A stretch of DNA of 64,000 nucleotides. Origin: Candidatus Multivoradales bacterium (GTDB lineage Bacteria > Acidobacteriota > Thermoanaerobaculia > Multivoradales > J023). Positions 19,104 to 61,481 of the stretch are shown one piece after another. The stretch lies in contig CBDFLE010000006.1 in the NCBI GenBank assembly GCA_965248925.1, positions 1,824,001 to 1,888,000 on the forward strand, given 5' to 3'. A model generated the notes under the pieces. The model was given only the letters and a program-made list of their open reading frames with translations, was not told the DNA's origin and made no database searches. A program made the translations under genes and the position numbers. The first letter of the stretch is position 1. Each line of letters opens with the position of its first letter.

Positions 19104-20048
19104 TCAGTTAGCGACTTCCGTACTCTCGTCGGCGGTCGCCTCGGGAGCGGCAGCGGCTTCGGCGGCAGCCGGTTTCGACGACTCCGCCTCTGGCACAGCC
19201 GCCTCGACCCCAGGGGCCACAGCTTCAACCGGCGCAGCTTCAACCGGCGCAGCTTCAACCGGCGCAGCTTCAACCGGCGCAGCTTCAACCGGCGCAGCTT
19301 CAACCGGCGCGGCTTCAGCGACCGCAGCCGGAGCCGCGTCCTTAGCCTCGATCATGCGCTCTTGCTGCAGCCTGCCAGCGCCCGCGAGATAGGCATCAGA
19401 AATCCGCGCCGCGAACAGTCGGATCGTGCGGATAGCGTCGTCATTGCCTGGGATGACGTAGTCGACCTTCTCCGGATCACAGTTAGTATCGACAATGGCG
19501 ATGACCGGGATACCAAGCTTGTTGGCCTCGGCGATAGCTATCGACTCCTTCTTCGGATCGACGATAAACAACGCATCGGGCAACTGATTGAGATCGCGCA
19601 CACCCGAGAGGTTACGATCGATCTTGGATCGCTCACGATCCATCCGCAGCAAGTCTTTCTTGGTCAGCTGCGACTCATCGTCGGCGAGCTTCTTCTCTAG
19701 CTCCTTGAGCCGCTCGACCGACTTGCGGATCGTAACGAAGTTGGTCAATGTGCCACCGAGCCAACGGTGGGTCACATAGTGCTGACCACAACGCGCAGCC
19801 TCTTGCGCCATCGGCTCCTGCGCTTGCCGCTTGGTGCCGACAAAGAGCAGCCGCCCACCCGAGGCGCCAAGACGCGCAACGTATTCCGCCGCTTCGCGGA
19901 AGTGCCGCAGGGTCTTCTGCAGATCGATGATGTAGATGCCATTGCGCTTACCAAAAATGTAGCGCCGCATCTTGGGGTTCCAACGACGGGTCTGGTGCCC
20001 AAAGTGGACACCAGCCTCGAGCAGGTCTCTCATGCTGACTTGAACCAA
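19104..20048 (-). CDS. rpsB: 30S ribosomal protein S2 with Ala/Pro/Glu repeat tail
   Basis: LLEAGVHFGHQTRRWNPKM...DTNCDP...PGNDDAIR. Confidence 0.98.
   Translation of the reverse strand: MVQVSMRDLLEAGVHFGHQTRRWNPKMRRYIFGKRNGIYIIDLQKTLRHFREAAEYVARLGASGGRLLFVGTKRQAQEPMAQEAARCGQHYVTHRWLGGTLTNFVTIRKSVERLKELEKKLADDESQLTKKDLLRMDRERSKIDRNLSGVRDLNQLPDALFIVDPKKESIAIAEANKLGIPVIAIVDTNCDPEKVDYVIPGNDDAIRTIRLFAARISDAYLAGAGRLQQERMIEAKDAAPAAVAEAAPVEAAPVEAAPVEAAPVEAAPVEAAPVEAVAPGVEAAVPEAESSKPAAAEAAAAPEATADESTEVAN
19221..19310. repeat. Perfect 15-bp tandem repeat x6 in the rpsB tail
   Basis: (AGCTTCAACCGGCGC)6, encoding (APVEA)6 on the minus strand. Confidence 0.97.
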
Positions 20049-22903: not shown

Positions 22904-22961
22904 ATCAAGGCGGGGCGCCAGCCGAACAACCCGCTCCCAAATAACCGGCGCGTCCCGCGCC

Positions 22962-25253
22962 TCAACCCTCCGGAGGGCGCTCCGCACCCACGGGCTCCGC
23001 CCGTCTGGATGCCGGCTCCGCCGGCCCTGGCGCAGGACCTAGAGCAAGGCGGAAGCCCAAGTAGTCGAAGCGGCCCGACGGGTGCCTGCAGTAGCGGCAA
23101 GCCGCACGCACGTCGCGTGCGCCGCTGCTCCACGCACCCCCGCGGATGACCCGGAAGGCGCCTTCGGAAGGTGATGAATAGTCGGGTCGCCAACGATCGT
23201 GGCACCACTCCCACACGTTGCCCAACATGTCATGCAAGCCCCAGGCGTTGGGTCGTTTCTGAGCAACAGGATGAGTCTCGCGAGAACTATTGTGCCGGTA
23301 CCAGGCGATCACATCGAGTTCTGGCGACTTACCCTGGGCATCAGCCGTGAAGGTTCCTTCATAGGTCGCCGTCGTGGTACCCGCTCGGCAAGCGTATTCC
23401 CACTCTGCCTCGGCAGGTAGACGAACGTCCAACTCTGGCGCGGCCTCGTTCACGGCCGCCAAGAAACTCTGGCAATCGTTCCAGCTCACGCGTTCGACTG
23501 GCCGATTCTTGCCCTTGAATTGACTCGGATTTGCCCCGCTCACAGCCTGCCAAAACGCTTGGGTTGTCGGTGTTTCAGCCAACCAGAAACCTCTCTTCAG
23601 AGTAACTTCGTGCTGGGGACCATCCTGGGCAAAGTGCCCCGGCTCTTCTTCCGGCGACCCCATCAGAAAAGTCCCCGGCTCGATCCAGCGAAATCGAACC
23701 TTCACCTGAGCGAAGCTGACCGTCTCCCAGCGGCCGTAGATATCTTGCCCAGAATCAACCACTCGAACCTTGAGTGAGCCAAGCCGCACAGCAAAGGAGA
23801 CCCGAGGCTGGAGACTCGGGGCCGGCTTCGTCGGCACTGTCTCCAGGGCCGGTTGCTCTTGGGCATGGCGCAAAGCAGCGCAGAACTCCTCGACTGTCGA
23901 ATAGCGTTGACCAGGATCAAATAGGGTGCCGCGCTTGAGAACCTGCTTGAGAGCCTCCGAGCAAGTGAGGGGGGCTATCACCGTGGCGGTAGCGTTGATT
24001 GCCGAGTGCGGCACCTGCTGGCCGCGAAGGGCGAAAATCGCCGTCATCGCCAGCGAGTACACATCTGCCGAAGCCTCGACGCGCTTGGCATCGATCAACG
24101 ATTCGGGAGCCGCATAGACGAAGGTGCCCATGGCTGCCTCAGTGCGAGTGTTGCCGGTGCTATCTCCACTCACTTTCACCAGGTCGAAATCGGTGAGTTT
24201 TCCCCTGCCATCGCCGTCGAACACAATGTTGGCAGGCTTGACATCGCGATGGACAATACCCCGAGCGTGAGCGTGCGTCAGCGCGTTGCCAACACTCAGG
24301 ATCACTTTCAAAGCCGCGGCCTCGGACCAGCGACCCCGTAGCCGGGCGTGTAGAAAATCGCCGCCTTCGAAATACTCCATCACGAAGTAATGAAAGCCCT
24401 CATCCTGGGCCTCGGACACGAGCACTCGCACGATCCCCGGATGCTCGCCCAAACGCACCATCTCCCGAGCGCCGCAGAAGAATCGGCGGCGGCGGCTCTC
24501 GTCGCGGGCGAACTGACCATGGAGCACCTTCACCGCGACCACTTGGCGCGTCTTGCGATGGCGGGCCCGCCAGACGGTGGCAAATCCACCCTGCCCGACC
24601 GGCACCTTCAACCGGTAGACACCGCCGAGGAGATCTCCAGGGCGCAGCTGAGCGCCCTCGCGCAAACGTCGCTTCAGCCGCCGGATGGTGCGCTCGACCG
24701 CTCCTGCTGGGCCGCCGGATTCGAGCAGAGCTTCGAGTTCTTCTTCAGCCTTCTCCAGCTGCCGCGAAAGCTTGAGGTGCTCCGGGGTCGGCGGCTCCAT
24801 CCCGGTCGAACCAATGAACTTCGGTAAGAGATCCGGATGTCGATCGCGCAGCAGCGCCACAAGGTTCCCCAGAGCCCAGGTCGAACCGATCTCAAGCGCC
24901 CCCTCGGCGCGGCGGCGTAGCTGGCACTCAGTCTCAGTGGAGATGTTGCAGGTGGCCGCCAAGCGGTAGACCTGCGCTGGCGAATCGCCAGGGTCTTGGA
25001 AGACTTCCTCAAGTGCTGCGAGAGCGGGTGTGGGGCCGAACTGCCGCACCCGCTTGCACTGAACCACCCACCGACGGCCATCAGGACCCACGCTGGCGAG
25101 ATCGACCCCGTGGTCAGCACCCGCGGCACCGGGGTTCGACACCGCGGTGTGACCTTCGGCTTCGAGCAAGGCGAAACACAGTTCCTCGAAGCGCTCGGGC
25201 GCGAGGCCCTCTCGCAAACGGTACTTGATCCAATCGTCGTTCGGTCCCGGCAT
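22962..25253 (-). CDS. Mrr-type restriction endonuclease + Ser/Thr kinase + FGE-sulfatase (SUMF1/CLec-fold) fusion protein; putative DGR target
   Basis: N-term RFEELC..DHGVD..VVQCK (Mrr-like PD-(D/E)xK); kinase GQGGFATV/VAVK/HRDVKPAN/DFD/YAAPE; C-term PVERVSW, RLPAEAEWEYACRAG, PNAWGLHDMLGNVWEW, RGGAW..LGFRL; start MPGP at 25253 after GGAAGG. Confidence 0.9.
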   Translation of the reverse strand: MPGPNDDWIKYRLREGLAPERFEELCFALLEAEGHTAVSNPGAAGADHGVDLASVGPDGRRWVVQCKRVRQFGPTPALAALEEVFQDPGDSPAQVYRLAATCNISTETECQLRRRAEGALEIGSTWALGNLVALLRDRHPDLLPKFIGSTGMEPPTPEHLKLSRQLEKAEEELEALLESGGPAGAVERTIRRLKRRLREGAQLRPGDLLGGVYRLKVPVGQGGFATVWRARHRKTRQVVAVKVLHGQFARDESRRRRFFCGAREMVRLGEHPGIVRVLVSEAQDEGFHYFVMEYFEGGDFLHARLRGRWSEAAALKVILSVGNALTHAHARGIVHRDVKPANIVFDGDGRGKLTDFDLVKVSGDSTGNTRTEAAMGTFVYAAPESLIDAKRVEASADVYSLAMTAIFALRGQQVPHSAINATATVIAPLTCSEALKQVLKRGTLFDPGQRYSTVEEFCAALRHAQEQPALETVPTKPAPSLQPRVSFAVRLGSLKVRVVDSGQDIYGRWETVSFAQVKVRFRWIEPGTFLMGSPEEEPGHFAQDGPQHEVTLKRGFWLAETPTTQAFWQAVSGANPSQFKGKNRPVERVSWNDCQSFLAAVNEAAPELDVRLPAEAEWEYACRAGTTTATYEGTFTADAQGKSPELDVIAWYRHNSSRETHPVAQKRPNAWGLHDMLGNVWEWCHDRWRPDYSSPSEGAFRVIRGGAWSSGARDVRAACRYCRHPSGRFDYLGFRLALGPAPGPAEPASRRAEPVGAERPPEG
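22975..23025 (-). other. Three tandem GC-GGA-GC triloop hairpins (DGR cis-element-like)
   Basis: GCCGGC-GGA-GCCGGC, ACGGGC-GGA-GCCCGT, GGGTGC-GGA-GCGCCC about 20 nt after the GFRL codons. Confidence 0.75.
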
Positions 25254-25548
25254 CCTTCCCAACCTTGGAGCGAAGGATAACAGCCGGCGATAGAACGCCA
25301 AGTAACGTGCCAGCCGAAGAGTGCGGCGGATTCGATGCCCCCGGAATCTAGGTGCTACCGAACTAGGTGCCAACCGCGCACGCCCTCACATCAGGAACCA
25401 CCATCCGCGGTCACGGTTCCCCAGAGCAGATGGACCACAAGCTGCGGCTGGCTGGTTCCTGGCTCTTCTTTCTTCCGCGGGCTATGCTGATGGCACACCG
25501 GCCAATTAGTCGTCGTTCTGGACGGCGACCGGGCCAAGGAGATGCCCC

Positions 25549-25800
25549 ATGACTGTTGTGCAAGTGAAATTCGACACCGACGTGTTTTCGACCCTGCGCA
25601 AGTCTCCGCAGGAGGTTTCTGACGACATGCGTCGCGCAGCTGCAATCGTGTGGTACGCCCAGGGCACTATTTCCCAAGGAAAGGGGGCAGAACTTGCTGG
25701 GCTGAGCCGAGCGGAGTTCATTGATGCGCTCTCGGCTAGTGGCGTGTCGCCGGTTCAAGAGACCCTCGAAGAGATCCGGGAAACGCTCGCGCGTGAGTAA
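25549..25800 (+). CDS. UPF0175-family putative antitoxin
   Basis: 83 aa; AIVWYAQGTISQGKGAELAGLSRAEFIDAL helix-turn-helix signature; overlaps next gene. Confidence 0.85.
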   Translation: MTVVQVKFDTDVFSTLRKSPQEVSDDMRRAAAIVWYAQGTISQGKGAELAGLSRAEFIDALSASGVSPVQETLEEIRETLARE

Positions 25801-26278
25801 GTCCTTCGTCGTCAACGCTTCTCCCTTGATCCTGTTCTCGCGAATCGGTCGGCTGGACCTCTTGGTGGCCCTGGCGGACACCCTTGAGGTCCCGGCGGCG
25901 GTGATGGCTGAGCTTCAAGCTGGCGCCCACCATGACGACGCCGCTGAGGTTGTGCGGGGAGTCTCAGCGATTCGCATCGTACCGGACCTCGAAGTAGCCG
26001 AGGAAGTGAAGGCTTGGAGGCTTGGACCCGGAGAGTCTCAGGTTCTATCCCACGCCCTGCGATCTGGCGAAAACGAAGCGGTCTTGGACGATCGCGCAGC
26101 CAGGAGATGCGCCCAATCCCTAGGTATTGCGCTGATCGGTACCCTCGGAGTAGTGATCAAGTGTCGGCATCTGGGCCTCATCCCAGCGGCCCGACCGATA
26201 GTAGAGAGCTTGAGCAAAGCCGGAATCCGTTTAGTGCCTGCTCTGCTCGACGCAGCACTAGAAGAAGTGGGGGAGTGA
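25793..26278 (+). CDS. DUF3368-family PIN-like protein (putative toxin)
   Basis: VVNASPLI, LGPGESQVL, LDDRAARRCA, GTLGVV, ends EVGE. Confidence 0.88.
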   Translation: MSKSFVVNASPLILFSRIGRLDLLVALADTLEVPAAVMAELQAGAHHDDAAEVVRGVSAIRIVPDLEVAEEVKAWRLGPGESQVLSHALRSGENEAVLDDRAARRCAQSLGIALIGTLGVVIKCRHLGLIPAARPIVESLSKAGIRLVPALLDAALEEVGE

Positions 26279-38544: not shown

Positions 38545-41139
38545 TCAGAGCCGGATCTGGTCGAGCCTCTCGAGAACCTCATGTGCCGCTCGCGGGCGAT
38601 CTGCGGCGGCTTTGGCCAGGCAGTGCAACACCAACTGCTCAAGATCCGGCCCCACCTCATCGCTGAGGCTGCTGAGGGCCGCCGGCTGCTCGCCGACATG
38701 CTTGGCAAAAATCTCCGCCGGGCTGCCGGCGGTGAACGGCAGCTCGCCGGTGAACATCTCGTAGAACATCACCCCGAGGGAGTAGAGGTCGGTGTGGGCG
38801 CCAGGTTCGCGACTCTGAATCTGCTCCGGCGCCAGATAGTAAGGCGATCCAACCACCTCGCCACCAGCGATGTTCTGCGGCACTGCCAAACCGAAATCCA
38901 TCCACTGTGGATTGCCGCTGGGCTCGACCAACACATTCTCGGGTTTCAGACCCAGGTGTAGTACTTTCTCCTGATGCGCCGCTGCCAGACCAGCGGTCAT
39001 GCGGCGGGCCAGCTGCAAGGCCGCCAGCAGAGGTAGACGGCTACTCTGGTCGAGCAGGTAGCGCAGATTGACCCCACGAACGTACGCGGTGGCGACAAAG
39101 GGCAAGCCATCGACTTCGGCAAAATCGAGGATGGTCTGCACATTCGGATGCTGAATACCCCGTGCTTGCAAAATCTGGCTCTTCAGCCGCTGCATCCGCA
39201 GCGGGTCGACCAACACTTCGGGACGAAGCATCTTCAGGGTCAAATAGTCGTGAGTCTCGCGATCCCGAACCTTGTAGACCACCGCCGAGCGGCCGGCTCC
39301 GAGTTGCGCCAAGACCTCGAAACGATTGCCGAGCAGTACCCCGGGGGCAATTTCAGCCATGCTCCTAGCATCACCACCGAGTGGGCTCTCCAGTGGCTGA
39401 GCCGACTGCACACCGGTCACTCGGCCGGCAATTTCGGCACTGACCAGGTAGAGGGCCTGGGTGCTGACCAGGCCCCGTTGCGGGTTGATCGTCACCTCGG
39501 CGCGCTGAAAAGCGGGTGCCAATTCGCCGTAGATCGCCGCCGACAACAGCAGATCCCCGGGAGTAGCTTCACGCAGCAGGCTTTCGAGCTGCTGCATCGG
39601 CAACCCAAGAACGGCGCTGGTTTGCCGGTCGCCCCAATTTGCCGAGCCGCTAACCACTGGACCAGAGGTCATCGCCACCAACGGCGGCTGCGGATCGTCG
39701 AAGACGTTCTCACGCTCGGTCAGCAGCAACACCACCTCGGTAGCCGCCGCCAGCGCCTGCAGAGCAGCGTCGTCGCCCTCGAAACTGGCCAGGACCCGAT
39801 GGCCGAAAACCGCCTCGGGACGCCCTCGATGGGCCGCCACTGCAGAGCCGATACGCTGCAAATCGCGGCTCAGGCGATCGACACTCTCTTCGGGATCGTA
39901 GCCCAGTTTGGGGTTGGCGAAACGGCGCATCTCGACCGCCAACAGGGCCGCATTCTTGACCCTTGGGCGCTGGATCACCTCGCTCTTAGAGGGCTCCGGC
40001 AAATGACGCGAAACATGGCTGACCAGCGATCCCAGAGCTTCTTTCTCGCGCAGATCACTCAGTAAGTCCGACAGCGAATCGGCCAAGCGGCCAACCTCGC
40101 CTTCAGCACTCGCTGGCAGCGCAAGATCGTAATGGCTGGCACGGGCCTGCTGAGCTACCGCGACGAGCTGTCGCACCGGTGCCAGAGTGCGGCGGGAGAT
40201 CAACAGCGCCGAGAGCAAGGCGCAGATCAAGCCAAGCCCACCGAGTAGCAGCAATACTCTCTGCAAATCACCTACGGCGCTCCGGCCCGTCGGCGAGGTG
40301 AGCGCCAAGAGCCCGCCGATGGGCTGTTCGACGGCATCATGCAAGGGTATCAACAAGCCTGTCCGCTGCTGCTCATCGAGCTCCAGCTCGATACCATCGA
40401 CCCGCTCGCCGCGCTCCAAGGTGCGCGACAAAGCATCCCCAGCGAGGCGCAGAGCCGGCATCAGCTGGTCGCTCTCAGCCGGCGACAGGGTGCTGGCCAA
40501 AACCCGCGGCCCAGCCGCCATCGAACTGAGAAAAACGGTGTCGAGTTGGTCGCTGCGTTTGAGCTGCCGATAGAAGGCATCGTCGATTGCGAAACCAACC
40601 AGCATGTAGCCGATAAAATCAAAGTCACGCGCCAGGGGCACCGCCAAGGTATCGAACATGCGTCCTTCGTGGGCCCAGACGCCAAAGGCCTGGTCCTCGC
40701 GCAACGCCACATCGAGTAAGGGATTGCCGGAATAGTCCTCGCCCGCGAGGTCGGGATCGTCGGTACGAATCAGGGTACGCTTGTTGCGATCGAGAACTAC
40801 CGCCAGATCAAAATGCAGCCGATTCTGATATTCCTCGACCAGATCGAGCACTTTGCGTCCGTCGCTGGCCTCGACGGCCTCGACGATGTAACGAGTCAGC
40901 GCCGGATCGGTCGAGAAGATTCTCGCCACCATGCGCAACTGCTGGTAGCGCTGCTGTTGAAAAGCGTTGTGCACCGCCAGATGGCCCGCCAATCGCTCGT
41001 CGACCCCTCCGCCAGTAGGCTTCGAGTCGAGCTGCGAGACCACCAAGTAGGCAGCGCCGAGGGTCAGAAGCAACAGCAATGCCATCCAGCCGAAGATCCA
41101 CAGCCACAGTGGAAGCCCGAACCTTTTCTTACGCGCCAC
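38545..41139 (-). CDS. Membrane receptor: TM-Cache-like-TM-HAMP + degenerate class III cyclase + pseudokinase
   Basis: Two TMs flanking a sensor domain, HAMP (PVRQL..EVGRLA), cyclase-like LLAVEMRRF..FGHRVLASF, kinase fold with HLGLKPEN, DFG, YLAPE, DLYSLG; GTG start at 41139 assumed. Confidence 0.8.
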   Translation of the reverse strand: MARKKRFGLPLWLWIFGWMALLLLLTLGAAYLVVSQLDSKPTGGGVDERLAGHLAVHNAFQQQRYQQLRMVARIFSTDPALTRYIVEAVEASDGRKVLDLVEEYQNRLHFDLAVVLDRNKRTLIRTDDPDLAGEDYSGNPLLDVALREDQAFGVWAHEGRMFDTLAVPLARDFDFIGYMLVGFAIDDAFYRQLKRSDQLDTVFLSSMAAGPRVLASTLSPAESDQLMPALRLAGDALSRTLERGERVDGIELELDEQQRTGLLIPLHDAVEQPIGGLLALTSPTGRSAVGDLQRVLLLLGGLGLICALLSALLISRRTLAPVRQLVAVAQQARASHYDLALPASAEGEVGRLADSLSDLLSDLREKEALGSLVSHVSRHLPEPSKSEVIQRPRVKNAALLAVEMRRFANPKLGYDPEESVDRLSRDLQRIGSAVAAHRGRPEAVFGHRVLASFEGDDAALQALAAATEVVLLLTERENVFDDPQPPLVAMTSGPVVSGSANWGDRQTSAVLGLPMQQLESLLREATPGDLLLSAAIYGELAPAFQRAEVTINPQRGLVSTQALYLVSAEIAGRVTGVQSAQPLESPLGGDARSMAEIAPGVLLGNRFEVLAQLGAGRSAVVYKVRDRETHDYLTLKMLRPEVLVDPLRMQRLKSQILQARGIQHPNVQTILDFAEVDGLPFVATAYVRGVNLRYLLDQSSRLPLLAALQLARRMTAGLAAAHQEKVLHLGLKPENVLVEPSGNPQWMDFGLAVPQNIAGGEVVGSPYYLAPEQIQSREPGAHTDLYSLGVMFYEMFTGELPFTAGSPAEIFAKHVGEQPAALSSLSDEVGPDLEQLVLHCLAKAAADRPRAAHEVLERLDQIRL

Positions 41140-41279
41140 CTTTGCAGTCCTCTCGGCGATGTGGAGGCCGCTGCCCGTGCTCGAAGAGAGGGCTTGGCCG
41201 GAGATTGATGAGTCGGAAAAACCGGATAGTAACTGTATCAAAAGCCGAGCCGGCGTCACCGGCCCTCACCGCCCCTCAC

Positions 41280-59150: not shown

Positions 59151-61481
59151 TCAAGAGAGGACACCGACACCGCGCTCAGCCAAACCAACACGCCGCTCGC
59201 GGTGCTCCAGCGCCACACCGGCCGCCAACGACAGGATACCTGCCGCCATCAAAGACATCGCCCAGCCGGGCACGTCGAGCCACTCATAGCGATCGGCGAT
59301 CAGTAACAGGGCCAAACCAACGTTGGTGAGTCCGGCAAAGTAAAAACCAAAATGCTGGCGAAAGTGACTCAGGAATGCCACCCCGAGGGCCAGCGCCAGC
59401 CAGCCCCACAGCCAAACCGTGGCATACTCACCGGTCCAACTCAGATACAGCGCCGGTTCGAGCAAAGCGAAGGGCGCCAGCCAAACCAACGGCCGACCGG
59501 CGCGCCGCAACAAAGGGGAGTTGGCGCTCTCCGAACCCGAGCCCACCAGGTAGATCAAGACCCCGTTCAGAGTCATCACCACGACAGTCGCCAGCAGGGT
59601 CGGATCGCTGAGATCGGCCGCCGCCGGAGAGGCGAAAGTCCAGCCGCAGTAGGCTGCGGCACGGCCATTGAGCGCCAGCAGCTCAAGCACCCCGGCCAGC
59701 AACCAGGCAACCGACAGATAGAGCGGCAGGGCCAACCAATCCAAGCGCCGACGCTCAGCCTGCCAGCCAAGGGCAGAATTGAAGACCAGCAGCGGCAGTA
59801 GATGTAAGGCCAATAGGTCCCAACGCCCCTCCTGCAACCAATCGCTGAGACCGAAATCGGTCAGCATCGCCAACATCGCCAGCGCCGCGCAACTCGCAAA
59901 TAGGGAACCCAACGCCAAGGTCCGCGTTCGCTGCCCAAGCCACAGTGACCAGAGCGCCGCCAGCACCATCGCCACCTGCAACTGCCGATTAGACACCGAG
60001 CCATCGCCAAAGAACGGCTCCCGACCCCCTGGCCACAGCCCCAACTCGTGGAAAATCACCAACAACAACAGCGGCACCAGGGCCGCCCCGGCCAGGTGAA
60101 ACGCCACCGAAATCGCCCGCCGATCACGACTACTCAAGCGCTCGGCGGTGAGGTGCAGGAAGGCGATCGGCAGACCCAACACCAACAGAGCCTGCCACAG
60201 GCCATGGCCGGCTTCGAACAGCCGATGGGCGGCGAAGTAAAACAAACCGCCGGCTAGCAGCAGAAAGGCGCCCAAGTAAAGGGCGATCTGCGACAACTCC
60301 AAACTGCGGCCATGAACAATCCACTCACCGGGCGAGGCCCGCAAGCGGCCGTAGGCATCGGCCAAGCGGCGGGCTTCATGAGCACCCACCAGCCGCAACC
60401 GCCGCCAGCGCTCGATTTCCCGCAAGTGGGGCCGGACGCGCTCTGCGAGGGCCGCGGCGTAGCGACTCGGCCGCGCCCGCACCAGTTGTCCGGCCAAGAA
60501 TCGCCGCAGGTCCCGAGCTAGCTCGAGGGCGTTGACGGTGCGCCGCTCCGGATCGACTTCGATCGCCGCCAAGGCGATCGCCTGCAACGGCTCGGGCAAC
60601 GACGGATCGATCTCCAGCGGTAGCGGCGGTCGGCCGGCACAAACCGCCCGTTCGACCGCTGGCGCATCCTCACCGGCAAAGGGCAGCTGGCCGCAGAGCA
60701 GCTCGTAGAGCACCACCCCGAGGGCGTAGACGTCGACCCGCCGATCCAATGCCCGGCCACGGACGAGCTGCTCGGGGGCGGCATAACCTGGCGTGCCCTG
60801 GCCGTGGCCGCGCCAACCCTCGCCATCGCTGAGGCCGAAGTCGACGATCTTTGGCCGCAGCTCAGCATCGACCAAGATGTTGGACGGCTTGAGATCGCGA
60901 TGCTGAATACCGAGCTGGTGTGCCCGATGAATGGTTTCGGCGACGCAAGCGAGCAGCTCGACCCGCCGCGGCAGGTCGAGAGAAGGACCGATCTCACCGA
61001 GTTCGAAGCCGTCGACGTACTCCATTACGATCACCGGCCCCTCGGCAGCAGTGCACAACTCGTAGATCTGCACGATCGACGGATCCTTGAACAACGCCAG
61101 CGAGCGCGCTTCGCGGAGGAACTGCTCATAGGCCCGCAGGCGCGGCCGATCACGGCGCAGGATCTTGGCCGCGACCGTGCGCCCGAGGTTCAGATCGACC
61201 AGCTTGAAGACCTCGCCCATGCCGCCCGCGCCGAGGCGCTCAATGGTGCGAAAACCATCGATTTCGGGTAGCGCTTCGCTCAACGAATCGAGGGCTGGCG
61301 AGGGTTCGCCGAAGCTCAGCGTGTTTTCGAGGATCGCAAGTTCGCCAAGAGCCTGCTCTAGCTGTTCCAGTAGGGCCGGATCCTGCGCCCCCAACCGCGG
61401 CAGCGACGGCAGCTCGCCATGCCGCTCACGGTGCTCGACAGCCGCCGCCAAGAGCTCCTCCAGGCGCTCCGCTTCGCTCAT
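59151..61481 (-). CDS. Ser/Thr protein kinase with polytopic C-terminal membrane domain
   Basis: LGAGGMGEV, VAAK, HRDLKPSN, DFG, YAAPE, DVYALG; about 10 or more hydrophobic segments after the kinase. Confidence 0.9.
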   Translation of the reverse strand: MSEAERLEELLAAAVEHRERHGELPSLPRLGAQDPALLEQLEQALGELAILENTLSFGEPSPALDSLSEALPEIDGFRTIERLGAGGMGEVFKLVDLNLGRTVAAKILRRDRPRLRAYEQFLREARSLALFKDPSIVQIYELCTAAEGPVIVMEYVDGFELGEIGPSLDLPRRVELLACVAETIHRAHQLGIQHRDLKPSNILVDAELRPKIVDFGLSDGEGWRGHGQGTPGYAAPEQLVRGRALDRRVDVYALGVVLYELLCGQLPFAGEDAPAVERAVCAGRPPLPLEIDPSLPEPLQAIALAAIEVDPERRTVNALELARDLRRFLAGQLVRARPSRYAAALAERVRPHLREIERWRRLRLVGAHEARRLADAYGRLRASPGEWIVHGRSLELSQIALYLGAFLLLAGGLFYFAAHRLFEAGHGLWQALLVLGLPIAFLHLTAERLSSRDRRAISVAFHLAGAALVPLLLLVIFHELGLWPGGREPFFGDGSVSNRQLQVAMVLAALWSLWLGQRTRTLALGSLFASCAALAMLAMLTDFGLSDWLQEGRWDLLALHLLPLLVFNSALGWQAERRRLDWLALPLYLSVAWLLAGVLELLALNGRAAAYCGWTFASPAAADLSDPTLLATVVVMTLNGVLIYLVGSGSESANSPLLRRAGRPLVWLAPFALLEPALYLSWTGEYATVWLWGWLALALGVAFLSHFRQHFGFYFAGLTNVGLALLLIADRYEWLDVPGWAMSLMAAGILSLAAGVALEHRERRVGLAERGVGVLS

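What the first reader, a model, noticed from the sequence alone, without database searches (positions are those of the whole stretch)
22962..25253. Mrr-type nuclease - Ser/Thr kinase - CLec fusion: candidate one-protein sensor-switch-effector
Seen: an N-terminal D-x-G-x-D...Q-C-K nuclease motif, a helical linker, a kinase with intact K, HRD and APE (DFD in place of DFG), and a C-terminal FGE-sulfatase-fold domain without the catalytic FGE Cys motif. There is no TM or signal peptide. Knowledge: Mrr-like nucleases are common effectors in anti-phage systems, and non-catalytic FGE/CLec domains bind ligands. Inference: a cytoplasmic receptor in which ligand binding, via kinase activity, licenses DNA cleavage (abortive infection or non-self recognition). 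I do not know this exact architecture as a characterised system.
Basis: partly seen in the sequence, partly recalled or inferred. Interest (0 to 1): 0.78.

Follow-up and report, generated by a model that had tools for sequence, protein, structure and literature searches.

The report
Hypervariable nuclease-kinase-lectin sensor protein
This gene encodes a cytoplasmic protein joining a DNA-cutting domain, a protein kinase and a ligand-binding lectin domain whose binding face is rewritten by a distant mutagenic retroelement, so it looks like a bacterial counterpart of a diversifiable immune receptor.

Summary
Window 22962-25253 (-) encodes a 763-aa soluble protein with three domains: an Mrr_cat PD-(D/E)xK nuclease, a Hanks Ser/Thr kinase and an FGE-sulfatase/C-type-lectin domain.

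The last 126 nt of the lectin domain (window 23039-23164) is a variable region of a diversity-generating retroelement (DGR). Its reverse transcriptase and template repeat lie 186 kb away in the same genome.
- All 15 of 15 differences from the template fall on template adenines.
- All 98 of 98 non-adenine positions are identical, while the flanking domain DNA is only about 60% identical to its paralogs.
- A cluster of three GGA-loop hairpins follows the variable region. Such clusters occur at only two places in the 8-Mb genome, both after variable regions of this DGR.

The kinase-lectin core belongs to a large family with interchangeable N-terminal domains: TIR, Mrr, caspase, CHAT, SIR2 and DUF4062. 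The same Mrr module heads STAND NTPases, some of which end in FGE domains.

My best reading, at about 0.6, is a DGR-diversified intracellular sensor whose kinase gates a nuclease effector. The general class has been predicted in print (Kaur 2020/2021, Doré 2024, Vallota-Eastman 2020) but not tested. I did not find this nuclease-kinase-lectin form in print.

The parts
22962..25253 (-). Whole gene, 763 codons plus stop: Mrr nuclease, helical hairpin, Ser/Thr kinase, beta neck, FGE-type lectin domain
   Evidence: full-length model mean pLDDT 86.2
24804..25253 (-). Residues 1-150: Mrr-type PD-(D/E)xK nuclease domain (E23, acidic 47, D51, Q65-x-K67)
   Evidence: Pfam Mrr_cat 31.4 bits. F22 and E23 are invariant and D51, Q65, C66, K67 are kept in at least 90% of 121 aligned relatives. 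Fold Z 12.5/11.3/9.6 to AF1548/MspJI/Avs4.
24654..24794 (-). Residues 154-200: two-helix hairpin joining nuclease and kinase. Its second helix and the following loop are conserved across the whole kinase family.
   Evidence: DSSP H157-179 and H184-198. L166, R195, R198, L203, G206, L209 are kept in at least 90% of 120 family members.
23844..24638 (-). Residues 206-470: Hanks-type Ser/Thr kinase of a DFD clade, with conserved activation-loop threonines T366 and T369 (T371 is conserved only among the four Mrr-kinase proteins)
   Evidence: Pfam Pkinase 127 bits. K242, H335, R336, D337, N342 are invariant; D355, F356, D357, T366, T369 are kept in at least 90% of 120 members. T371 is invariant in the four-protein alignment.
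23019..23768 (-). Residues 496-745: four-strand beta neck plus FGE-sulfatase-type C-type-lectin domain, non-catalytic
   Evidence: Pfam FGE-sulfatase 146.8 bits. The best solved relative is the DGR variable protein TvpA, 2y3c, E 5.2e-26. The FGE cysteine pair is not matched. Strands E496-531.
23039..23164 (-). DGR variable region (residues 697-739). It holds 17 codons that carry a template adenine, 10 of them AAC in the template.
   Evidence: 15 of 15 mismatches to the template repeat at G000:C6:1660772-1660897 lie on template A. 98 of 98 non-A positions are identical and 15 of 28 A positions are changed.
22947..23025 (-). Cluster of three short GC-stem hairpins with GGA loops directly 3' of the variable region. 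It overlaps the last codons and the stop, and is a candidate DGR target-recognition element.
   Evidence: Folds. Genome-wide, clusters of 3 or more such hairpins within 90 nt occur at only 2 places, both just after variable regions of this DGR.

Best explanation
The gene encodes a soluble, single-chain receptor from a family of effector-kinase-lectin proteins. Shown: the C-terminal FGE-type lectin domain carries a variable region that a DGR rewrites. The DGR (reverse transcriptase, HRDC accessory gene, AAC-rich template repeat) sits 186 kb away inside a MoxR-ATPase/trypsin/FGE conflict-type locus and also diversifies two local FGE proteins. About 1e14 protein variants are possible at residues 700-738, and none can contain a stop codon. 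Also shown: the N-terminal domain is an Mrr-type PD-(D/E)xK nuclease with its catalytic residues conserved, and the kinase has every catalytic motif plus conserved activation-loop threonines. Inferred: the diversified lectin face binds a foreign or non-self molecule in the cytoplasm. Binding relieves autoinhibition or brings copies together, and the kinase trans-autophosphorylates. This licenses the nuclease to cut DNA, either halting an invader or killing the infected cell. In this reading the kinase occupies the place that a STAND NTPase holds in Mrr-STAND-FGE and Avs-type proteins.
For: DGR target:
- 15 of 15 template-versus-variable-region differences lie on template adenines, and 98 of 98 non-A positions are identical. 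The 300 nt upstream are only 186 of 300 and 168 of 300 identical to the two paralogs.
- Only three variable regions match this template genome-wide.
- The retroelement genes are RVT_1 and HRDC, next to AAA_5/MoxR-like, trypsin and FGE genes.
- A hairpin cluster follows the variable region and is specific to this DGR's variable regions.
- The best solved relative of the C-domain is TvpA, a DGR variable protein.

Effector status of the N-domain:
- A search of 1.84 billion representatives gave 431 hits, with the domain almost always N-terminal in proteins of 69-1926 aa.
- Of the 80 listed hits of 400 aa or more, I scanned the first 59 by rank. 57 have Mrr_cat, 22 NB-ARC, 11 NACHT and 18 TPR_12.
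- Four have Mrr-STAND-FGE.
- Catalytic residues are conserved, and the fold matches the Avs4 nuclease at Z 9.6.

Kinase as hub:
- Among the 120 best hits to the Mrr-kinase profile, 92 carry FGE, 68 a TIR-type domain, 6 Mrr_cat, 6 DUF4062, 2 caspase, 2 CHAT and 2 SIR2_2. These counts come's Pfam column, tallied.
- The median stretch ahead of the kinase module is 201 residues.
- The same three-domain architecture recurs in P0143, P0157 and loci L015 (Acidobacteriota MAG) and L079 (Anaerolineales MAG).
- The kinase-lectin part is 37% identical over residues 158-737 to a Thiohalocapsa PB-PSB1 protein that has cis variable regions.

Published predictions read in passages: FGS/CLec domains as DGR-diversified invader sensors (PMC8195603; PMC10907252).
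Against: - There is no experimental result for any member of this family.
- The gene is not in a recognisable defence island. It lies between coaE and a UPF0175/DUF3368 pair, beside ribosomal and other housekeeping genes.
- Nothing shows that the kinase controls the nuclease.
- Among the 120 family members, about 9 have fewer than 90 residues ahead of the kinase, so the kinase can evidently be an output on its own, although some of these may be fragments.
- DFD in place of DFG is unusual and its effect on catalysis is unknown.
- Kaur et al. treat kinases in such systems as effectors rather than switches.
- Contigs from the four runs of one sample show a single variable-region allele, so ongoing diversification is not shown. 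Contigs drop rare variants.
- The PADLOC PD-T4-6 hits are generic. Two unrelated kinases in the window score as well or better, at 3.7e-61 and 1.4e-57 against 1.6e-52 for the target.
Confidence: 0.6

Rival explanations
1. Regulatory signalling rather than immunity. The DGR tunes which endogenous or environmental ligand, or which substrate, the kinase responds to. The output is phosphorylation of cell proteins, and the Mrr domain serves as a DNA anchor or a minor add-on.
For: Vallota-Eastman et al. 2020 proposed this for cyanobacterial kinase-CLec DGR targets (PMC7517822, passages). The genome has about 90 kinase matches, typical of signalling-rich bacteria. The flanking genes are housekeeping genes. 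A few family members lack an N-terminal domain.
Against: The N-terminal partners across the family are the usual immune or cell-death effectors: TIR, SEFIR, caspase, CHAT, SIR2 and Mrr. The Mrr catalytic residues are conserved rather than decayed. The same DGR serves a MoxR/trypsin conflict-type locus. No ortholog was found in 30 related genomes (best 43% identity over the N-domain), a patchy pattern.
Confidence: 0.15
2. Kin or self/non-self recognition between cells of an aggregating or multicellular bacterium. The hypervariable lectin face detects proteins of non-kin cells after contact or fusion, and the nuclease executes incompatibility.
For: Doré et al. 2024 raise this as an alternative role for DGR-diversified conflict systems (PMC10907252). 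The family is found in Myxococcota, Acidobacteriota, Chloroflexota (Herpetosiphon) and Thiohalocapsa.
Against: The protein is cytoplasmic, with no export signal, so it can only meet foreign molecules that enter the cell. No partner polymorphic locus was seen next to it.
Confidence: 0.1
3. The kinase is the real effector, as in Stk2 or PD-T4-6-type defence. Ligand binding triggers broad phosphorylation that arrests the cell, and the Mrr domain is a second, independent effector or is inactive in practice.
For: The kinase has all catalytic motifs. Kaur et al. list S/T/Y kinases among effectors of FGS and ternary systems. Minimal kinase-FGE forms exist.
Against: Similarity to the PD-T4-6 and Stk2 models is generic Hanks-kinase similarity. 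The strict effector-hairpin-kinase-FGE order, with swappable N-terminal effectors, suggests the kinase is the constant core rather than the variable weapon.
Confidence: 0.1
4. Fossil target. The lectin domain was copied from the DGR locus, and the variable region was rewritten once or a few times. The remote copy is no longer diversified, and the protein may have no special role.
For: Only one allele is seen in the contigs of four runs of one sample. Doré et al. report one remote target (their DGR 1) that matches a template at all non-A sites yet shows no variation.
Against: There are zero non-adenine differences in 98 positions, although the neighbouring domain DNA is about 40% diverged from its paralogs. 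The 3' boundary and hairpin cluster are intact, the frame is open, and the catalytic motifs in all domains are intact.
Confidence: 0.05

Closest known systems
Kinase-CLec DGR targets (cyanobacterial STK-CLec proteins, Vallota-Eastman 2020; kinase-bearing targets of Thiohalocapsa PB-PSB1, Doré 2024)
   Same: A Hanks kinase followed by a C-terminal FGE-type lectin domain with a DGR variable region. The PB-PSB1 locus L020 matches residues 158-737 at 37% identity and has three cis variable regions with A-specific mismatches. Remote targets are accepted there by the same test of identity at all non-A sites.
   Different: The N-terminal domain here is an Mrr nuclease; query residues 1-157 are unmatched in L020. 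Here the target lies 186 kb from its template. I did not find the Mrr-kinase-FGE combination in the passages read or in a full-text search.
STAND NTPase-FGS systems and Avs3/Avs4-type antiviral STANDs
   Same: Three-part order: N-terminal effector, central switch, C-terminal sensor. The Mrr module is homologous to the one heading NB-ARC, NACHT and nSTAND1 proteins, four of which end in FGE domains. The fold matches the Avs4 nuclease domain at Z 9.6.
   Different: The central module is a protein kinase, not a P-loop NTPase. No STAND domain was detected. Characterised Avs sensors are TPR-like and are not DGR-diversified.
TvpA, Treponema denticola variable protein 1 (PDB 2y3c)
   Same: It is the best solved sequence relative of the C-domain (E 5.2e-26). 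It has an FGE-type lectin fold with the variable region at the extreme C-terminus. The Treponema DGR is the type example of HRDC-containing DGRs and has remote targets (Wu 2018, PMC5758913).
   Different: TvpA is a stand-alone 294-aa chain with no kinase or nuclease.
vWA-MoxR (VMAP) ternary conflict systems with DGR-diversified FGS domains (Kaur 2020)
   Same: The DGR that serves this gene sits in such a locus: trypsin-like protein, MoxR-like AAA_5 ATPase, a 908-aa protein ending in FGE, HRDC, RT, template, and a 301-aa FGE protein. The FGE domain of the 908-aa protein is 58% identical to the target's.
   Different: The target gene itself has no MoxR, vWA or protease partner nearby. Pfam found no vWA domain in the 908-aa protein.
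PD-T4-6, Stk2 and MADS6 defence kinases
   Same: Hanks-type kinase domain; PADLOC E 1.6e-52 to a PD-T4-6 model.
   Different: The similarity is generic. Two other kinases in the window score 3.7e-61 and 1.4e-57. All NCBIfam equivalog scores are far below their cut-offs, for example MAD6 at 138.6 against 460.
Formylglycine-generating enzyme (SUMF1) and EgtB/PvdO enzymes
   Same: The Pfam FGE-sulfatase fold. Public sources name family members 'SUMF1/EgtB/PvdO family nonheme iron enzyme'.
   Different: The FGE cysteine pair is not matched, and that stretch is the hypervariable region here. NCBIfam scores are far below cut-offs: PvdO 75 against 500 and EgtB 52 against 360. The database name is therefore misleading.

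Membership tests
DGR variable (target) protein | Variable region matching a template repeat with differences only at template adenines | tested here: met
   15 of 15 differences lie on A and 98 of 98 non-A positions are identical over 126 nt. The two sister variable regions show 17 of 17 and 11 of 11.
DGR variable (target) protein | A DGR-type reverse transcriptase and template repeat in the same genome | tested here: met
   A 410-aa RVT_1 protein (E 6.5e-17) carries a YMDD box and an I-G-x-x-x-S-Q stretch. That this stretch marks DGR RTs is recalled. An HRDC gene lies beside it, and the template repeat lies in the intergenic stretch between the RT gene and the 301-aa FGE gene.
DGR variable (target) protein | Variable region at the C-terminal end of a C-type-lectin/FGE fold | tested here: met
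   The variable region covers residues 697-739 of 763, inside Pfam FGE-sulfatase 523-737. TvpA is the best solved relative.
DGR variable (target) protein | Cis elements at the 3' end of the variable region (boundary differing from the template, GC hairpin) | tested here: met
   Template and variable regions part directly after a shared GC-rich stretch. Three GGA-loop hairpins follow each long variable region but not the template. Clusters of this kind occur at only 2 genomic places. That such hairpins guide retrohoming is recalled from work on the Bordetella phage DGR.
DGR variable (target) protein | Observed sequence heterogeneity at adenine sites within a population | tested here: inconclusive
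   Only assembled contigs of four runs of one sample were available, and one allele bridges the region. Contigs drop rare variants.
Mrr-type PD-(D/E)xK nuclease (Pfam Mrr_cat) | Profile match above the curated cut-off | tested here: met
   31.4 bits against a cut-off of 21, although only profile positions 4-74 of 115 are matched. 57 of 59 relatives match Mrr_cat.
Mrr-type PD-(D/E)xK nuclease (Pfam Mrr_cat) | Restriction-endonuclease-like fold | tested here: met
   Model pLDDT 92. Z 12.5 (rmsd 2.5, 116 aligned) to 1y88, 11.3 to MspJI and AspBHI, 10.3 to LlaBIII and 9.6 to Avs4.
Mrr-type PD-(D/E)xK nuclease (Pfam Mrr_cat) | Catalytic E ... D ... (Q/E)xK residues | tested here: met
   E23 is invariant. 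D51, Q65 and K67 are kept in at least 90% of 121 aligned sequences and are invariant in the four Mrr-kinase proteins.
Mrr-type PD-(D/E)xK nuclease (Pfam Mrr_cat) | DNA cleavage activity | not testable with these tools
   Needs a biochemical assay.
Hanks-type Ser/Thr protein kinase | Gly-rich loop, VAIK Lys, HRD, catalytic Asn, DFG, APE | tested here: met
   G220-x-G222-G223, K242, H335-R336-D337, N342 and A382-P383-E384 are present. DFG reads DFD, a trait kept in at least 90% of 120 family members.
Antiviral STAND (Avs/NLR-like) proteins | Central STAND P-loop NTPase | tested here: not met
   No NTPase family appears in the Pfam or NCBIfam scans of the target. The central domain is a kinase.
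PD-T4-6 / Stk2 / MADS6 defence kinases | Specific similarity beyond the generic kinase domain | tested here: not met
   Control kinases from the same window score as well or better. NCBIfam MAD6 scores 138.6 against a cut-off of 460.
Catalytic formylglycine-generating enzyme | Active-site cysteine pair | tested here: not met
   In the alignment to FGE 6s07, one Cys falls in a query gap and the other aligns with Ala. The identity of the catalytic pair is recalled.

The most novel reading that the evidence does not exclude
Effector-hairpin-kinase-lectin proteins form a kinase-centred counterpart of NLR/Avs receptors. In this reading a Hanks kinase, rather than a STAND NTPase, converts ligand binding into effector activation. 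Members such as this one add somatic-style diversification of the binding face by a DGR acting in trans. That would make them single-chain, anticipatory immune receptors in bacteria, functionally akin to a receptor kinase with a hypermutable antigen-binding domain and a built-in nuclease.
Probability: 0.4. Interest if true: 0.8.

Novelty: new variant of a known kind. Interest (0 to 1): 0.6.

Why it matters
DGR-diversified lectin domains fused to signalling and effector domains have been proposed as bacterial antigen sensors. By the passages I read, none has been tested (Doré 2024), and the 2026 STAND survey only models FGE sensors.

This gene packs sensor, switch and effector into one 763-aa soluble protein. 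Each part has a clear mutational handle:
- the nuclease (D51, K67);
- the kinase (K242, D337, and activation-loop threonines T366, T369, T371);
- a defined 17-codon variable face.

That makes the hypothesis directly testable. One can ask whether the lectin face selects ligands, whether the kinase gates the nuclease, and whether a DGR acting 186 kb away keeps the receptor changing.

The result also corrects a widespread database name. Family members are labelled as SUMF1/EgtB/PvdO-type nonheme iron enzymes, which hides their likely role as receptors.

Tried and rejected
- **PADLOC PD-T4-6 and mad6 hits:** rejected as evidence of membership. Two unrelated kinases in the window score as well or better.
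- **Self-association of the N-domain plus hairpin (complex prediction, two copies):** no answer (score 0.00). This is not evidence either way.
- **Sequencing runs:** five runs were listed, four of them from one sample and probably the assembly's source. All are kept as contigs, and no RNA holder is listed. One contig per run bridges the variable region with no differences. The other contigs matching 23036-23165 carry 13-19 differences and run on into unlike sequence; I take them to be the template and sister variable regions of the same genome. No conclusion on ongoing diversification or expression is possible.
- **Foldseek of the N-domain against PDB:** no match at E <= 0.001. VIA-align gave clear PD-(D/E)xK matches instead.
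- **Orthologs in relatives:** none close in 30 genomes (best 43% identity over the N-domain), so no variable-region comparison between strains was possible.
- **Synteny:** coaE and the alr-like gene lie on different contigs, or 595 kb apart, in all 7 relatives with a close match (57% identity or more) to the alr-like gene. Whether the target gene is an insertion could not be decided.
- **DGR link of the two other Mrr-kinase-FGE loci:**
  - In the genome of L015, the variable-region-like stretch has one 82%-identical copy at the end of another FGE gene. The mismatches are clustered but not A-biased, and no template was found. This is suggestive only.
  - In the genome of L079 there is no second copy.
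- **Cis template/variable-region pairs in family loci:** found in 2 of 80 loci within 10 kb. Remote templates were not searched for the other 78.
- **Hairpin folding energies:** not better than shuffles (z -0.6 to -1.9). The case for the hairpins rests on their recurrence and genomic specificity.
- **Pfam census of all 120 family members in one call:** I used the precomputed Pfam column, tallied.
- **Earlier notes of this scan:** the one note returned concerns another locus and did not bear on this finding.
- **Supplementary tables:** The supplements of Wu 2018, Kaur 2020/2021 and Doré 2024 may list this architecture.
Full report
**The gene and the observation**

The minus-strand ORF runs 22962-25373 from an upstream TTG. 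The ATG at 25253 gives 763 aa. I take it as the true start because close homologues and an own-genome paralog begin at the equivalent residues.

Pfam finds three domains:
- Mrr_cat at residues 17-86 (31.4 bits, cut-off 21);
- Pkinase at 213-439 (127 bits);
- FGE-sulfatase at 523-737 (146.8 bits).

A 19-residue hydropathy scan peaks at 1.05 and the N-terminus is hydrophilic, so the protein is predicted to be soluble and cytoplasmic.

**The N-terminal domain is a nuclease-type effector module**

An AlphaFold2 model of residues 1-200, built on 121 aligned sequences, has pLDDT 92. Foldseek gave only weak E-values (best 6e-3), though its top rows were nearly all PD-(D/E)xK nucleases. VIA-align against 48,161 chains gave clear matches:

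| Chain | Z |
|---|---|
| AF1548 (1y88) | 12.5 |
| MspJI and AspBHI nuclease domains | 11.3 |
| Type ISP enzyme LlaBIII | 10.3 |
| Avs4 N-terminal nuclease | 9.6 |
| FokI cleavage domain | 9.4 |

F22 and E23 are invariant, and D51, Q65, C66 and K67 are kept in at least 90% of the 121 sequences.

A search of 1.84 billion representative proteins with residues 1-200 gave 431 hits at E <= 1e-3 and 119 at E <= 1e-10. The match is almost always at the N-terminus, in proteins of 69-1926 aa. Of the 149 listed hits, 80 are 400 aa or longer. I scanned the first 59 of these by rank, which was the size limit. Of the 59, 57 have Mrr_cat, 22 NB-ARC, 11 NACHT, 9 AAA_16, 18 TPR_12 and 5 WD40.

So this is the Mrr module that heads STAND NTPases. 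Four relatives have Mrr-STAND-FGE: P0021, P0057, P0091 and P0074. The own genome holds a 51%-identical copy fused to an AAA_22 ATPase.

**The kinase belongs to a distinct clade with swappable N-terminal partners**

Three other proteins share the nuclease, the hairpin and the kinase with the target: P0143, P0052 and P0026. P0143 also ends in FGE, P0052 ends in an unassigned domain, and P0026 ends in a short Cys-rich tail.

A profile of these four, run against 5.8 billion proteins, gave 330 hits at E <= 1e-60, and the best 120 are listed with precomputed Pfam families. I tallied that column:

| Family | Members of 120 |
|---|---|
| FGE-sulfatase | 92 |
| TIR-type (TIR_2, TIR, SEFIR) | 68 |
| Mrr_cat | 6 |
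| DUF4062 | 6 |
| PF19957 | 4 |
| Caspase | 2 |
| CHAT | 2 |
| SIR2_2 | 2 |

Across the 120, these features are invariant or kept in at least 90%:
- kinase K242, H335-R336-D337 and N342;
- the DFD triplet;
- activation-loop residues D364, T366, G367 and T369;
- the second helix of the hairpin and the loop before the kinase (R195, R198, L203, G206, L209).

The median length ahead of the kinase module is 201 residues. About 9 of the 120 have fewer than 90, and some of those may be fragments.

No kinase in the own genome is closer than 37% identity over the kinase domain. Family members reach 40-55% over their aligned parts.

PADLOC hits to PD-T4-6 (E 1.6e-52) are not informative. Two unrelated kinases in the window score 3.7e-61 and 1.4e-57.

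**The lectin domain carries a DGR variable region**

The closest paralog of the FGE domain (58% identity) ends a 908-aa protein 184 kb away. That locus (L001) reads, on one strand:
1. a trypsin-like protein (521 aa);
2. a MoxR-like AAA_5 ATPase (322 aa);
3. the 908-aa FGE protein;
4. an HRDC gene;
5. a 410-aa reverse transcriptase (RVT_1, with a YMDD box);
6. an intergenic stretch;
7. a 301-aa FGE protein.

BLAST of the target's FGE-coding DNA against this locus hit both FGE genes. It also hit the intergenic stretch between the RT gene and the 301-aa gene, at 88% identity over 126 nt.

Aligned in register, that stretch is an AAC-rich template repeat, and three genes carry variable regions derived from it.

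| Variable region | Differences on template A | Template A positions changed | Non-A positions identical |
|---|---|---|---|
| Target gene | 15 of 15 | 15 of 28 | 98 of 98 |
| 908-aa protein | 17 of 17 | 17 of 28 | 98 of 98 |
| 301-aa protein | 11 of 11 | 11 of 28 | 98 of 98 |

By contrast, the 300 nt just upstream of the target's variable region are only 186 of 300 and 168 of 300 identical to the two paralogs. The exact non-A identity therefore reflects copying from the template, not shared descent.

Genome-wide, the template matches only these three variable regions. The target's variable region is at window 23039-23164 (G000:C6:1847039-1847164). The template is at C6:1660772-1660897, 186,142 nt away.

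Seventeen codons carry a template adenine, and ten of them are AAC. About 1e14 protein variants are possible and none contains a stop codon.

The best solved sequence relative of the C-domain is TvpA, the Treponema DGR variable protein (E 5.2e-26). The two cysteines of a solved FGE are not matched, and that stretch coincides with the variable codons 709-711.

The full-length model (pLDDT 86) shows a four-strand beta neck ahead of the FGE domain. Kaur et al. describe this feature for DGR-linked FGS domains related to TvpA.

**A cis element after the variable region**

Template and variable regions part right after a shared GC-rich stretch. Downstream of each variable region, but not of the template, lie three short GC-stem hairpins with GGA loops.

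Their folding energies are not better than shuffles of this GC-rich DNA. However, clusters of three or more such hairpins (stem of 5 or more) within 90 nt occur at only two places in the 8-Mb genome. One follows the variable region of the 908-aa gene and the other follows the target's, at window 22947-23025. The 301-aa gene has a similar set, but one stem is shorter.

These hairpins encode the low-confidence C-terminal tail shared by the target and the 908-aa protein. That tail is therefore probably a by-product of a DNA signal. Hairpins next to variable regions are known to direct retrohoming in the Bordetella phage DGR (recalled).

**What is known**

Wu et al. 2018 accept non-adjacent targets on A-only differences. 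They found 10 of 372 DGRs with targets more than 100 kb away, 14 of 372 with HRDC genes, and one target composition with a kinase domain (passages).

Vallota-Eastman et al. 2020 found that kinase-CLec proteins are the commonest multidomain DGR targets in cyanobacteria and proposed regulatory tuning (passages).

Kaur et al. 2020 and 2021 described FGS domains in vWA-MoxR and STAND-FGS conflict systems. These carry N-terminal effectors and are often linked to DGRs. The authors proposed the FGS domains as hypermutating invader sensors, and they list kinases among effectors (passages).

Doré et al. 2024 showed diversification of such targets in Thiohalocapsa PB-PSB1, including trans-acting cases judged by non-A identity. 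They note that CLec sensors have not been characterised experimentally (passages).

The PB-PSB1 locus L020 matches the target's residues 158-737 at 37% identity and has three cis variable regions. A Nature 2026 survey models FGE-sulfatase sensors on STANDs (passages).

A full-text search for Mrr_cat together with Pkinase or FGE-sulfatase found no paper with Mrr_cat.

**Distribution**

The three-domain architecture recurs in:
- P0143;
- P0157, from an Acidobacteriota MAG;
- locus L015, from an Acidobacteriota MAG;
- locus L079, from an Anaerolineales MAG.

No close ortholog was found in 30 related genomes; the best is 43% identity over the N-domain. Within 10 kb, 2 of 80 family loci have a cis template/variable-region pair.

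**Reading**

Shown:
- the domain identities and the conserved catalytic residues of both enzymes;
- the variable region, its template and the retroelement genes;
- the family-wide modularity.

Inferred:
- the diversified lectin face binds an incoming molecule;
- this activates the kinase, through the conserved activation-loop threonines;
- this in turn licenses the nuclease.

The inference rests on analogy with STAND receptors, where the same Mrr module and the same type of FGE sensor flank an NTPase. It also rests on the constancy of the hairpin-kinase-FGE core under changing N-terminal effectors.

Against it: no experiment exists, the gene has a housekeeping neighbourhood apart from an adjacent UPF0175/DUF3368 pair, minimal kinase-FGE forms exist, and ongoing diversification is unproven.

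I put the immune-sensor reading with a kinase-gated nuclease at about 0.6. The rivals are regulatory tuning, kin recognition, kinase-as-effector and a fossil target.

**Verdict**

The decisive feature is a DGR acting in trans on the sensor domain. This gene is a new domain variant, with a nuclease effector, of a predicted but untested class of diversifiable bacterial receptors.

Noticed in passing
window 25549-25800 (+) and 25721-26278 (+): Directly upstream of the target gene, and divergent from it, lies a UPF0175 (E 4e-20) plus DUF3368 (E 3e-10) gene pair with overlapping reading frames. It looks like a toxin-antitoxin-type module. That such pairs are PIN-type toxin-antitoxin modules is recalled.
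   Followed up: partly
own genome outside the window: G000:C6:4814692-4817399 and G000:C5:145049-147857: Two further DGRs are present, each with an RT 35-36% identical to the first and a template with two cis variable regions. Mismatches on template A are 11 of 11 and 16 of 16 for the first, and 13 of 14 and 11 of 12 for the second. With the three variable regions of the first DGR, the genome has seven DGR-diversified FGE genes.
   Followed up: partly
L002:5897-7294 (-) and L002:3664-5934 (-) (own genome, C6 about 4.54 Mb): A paralog of the Mrr module (51% identity) is fused to an AAA_22 ATPase (465 aa). It overlaps the start of a 756-aa nSTAND1-like ATPase whose N-terminal part is a long Gly/Val/Ala repeat. 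This is possibly a two-gene STAND-type system.
   Followed up: partly
L001:4672-4747, L001:7495-7570, window 22947-23025: The GGA-loop hairpin triplets after the variable regions keep their shape while the stem sequences differ between copies. Where they lie within the open frame they encode a recurring Arg-Ala-Glu-Pro-like tail in the two long proteins.
   Followed up: partly
window 19104-20048 (-): The ribosomal protein S2 gene ends in a tail with about six tandem copies of a five-residue Ala/Pro/Val/Glu unit, seen in the ORF translation.
   Followed up: no
whole own genome; window 38545-41259 (-) and 59151-61481 (-): The 8.0-Mb genome gives 92 matches to the target, about 80 of them over the kinase domain. 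Two further large kinase genes lie in this window.
   Followed up: no
L015:4090-4260 and L095:1496-1662 (an Acidobacteriota MAG): The Mrr-kinase-FGE homologue of this MAG shares the 3' end of its lectin domain, at 82% identity, with a second FGE gene that has a TIR-like N-terminus. Differences cluster between perfectly conserved blocks but are not A-biased, as expected of two sister variable regions whose template is not in the assembly.
   Followed up: partly
one search hit list: Public sources name family members 'SUMF1/EgtB/PvdO family nonheme iron enzyme' or 'bifunctional serine/threonine-protein kinase/formylglycine-generating enzyme family protein'. For the target at least, the enzyme reading is not supported.
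   Followed up: yes
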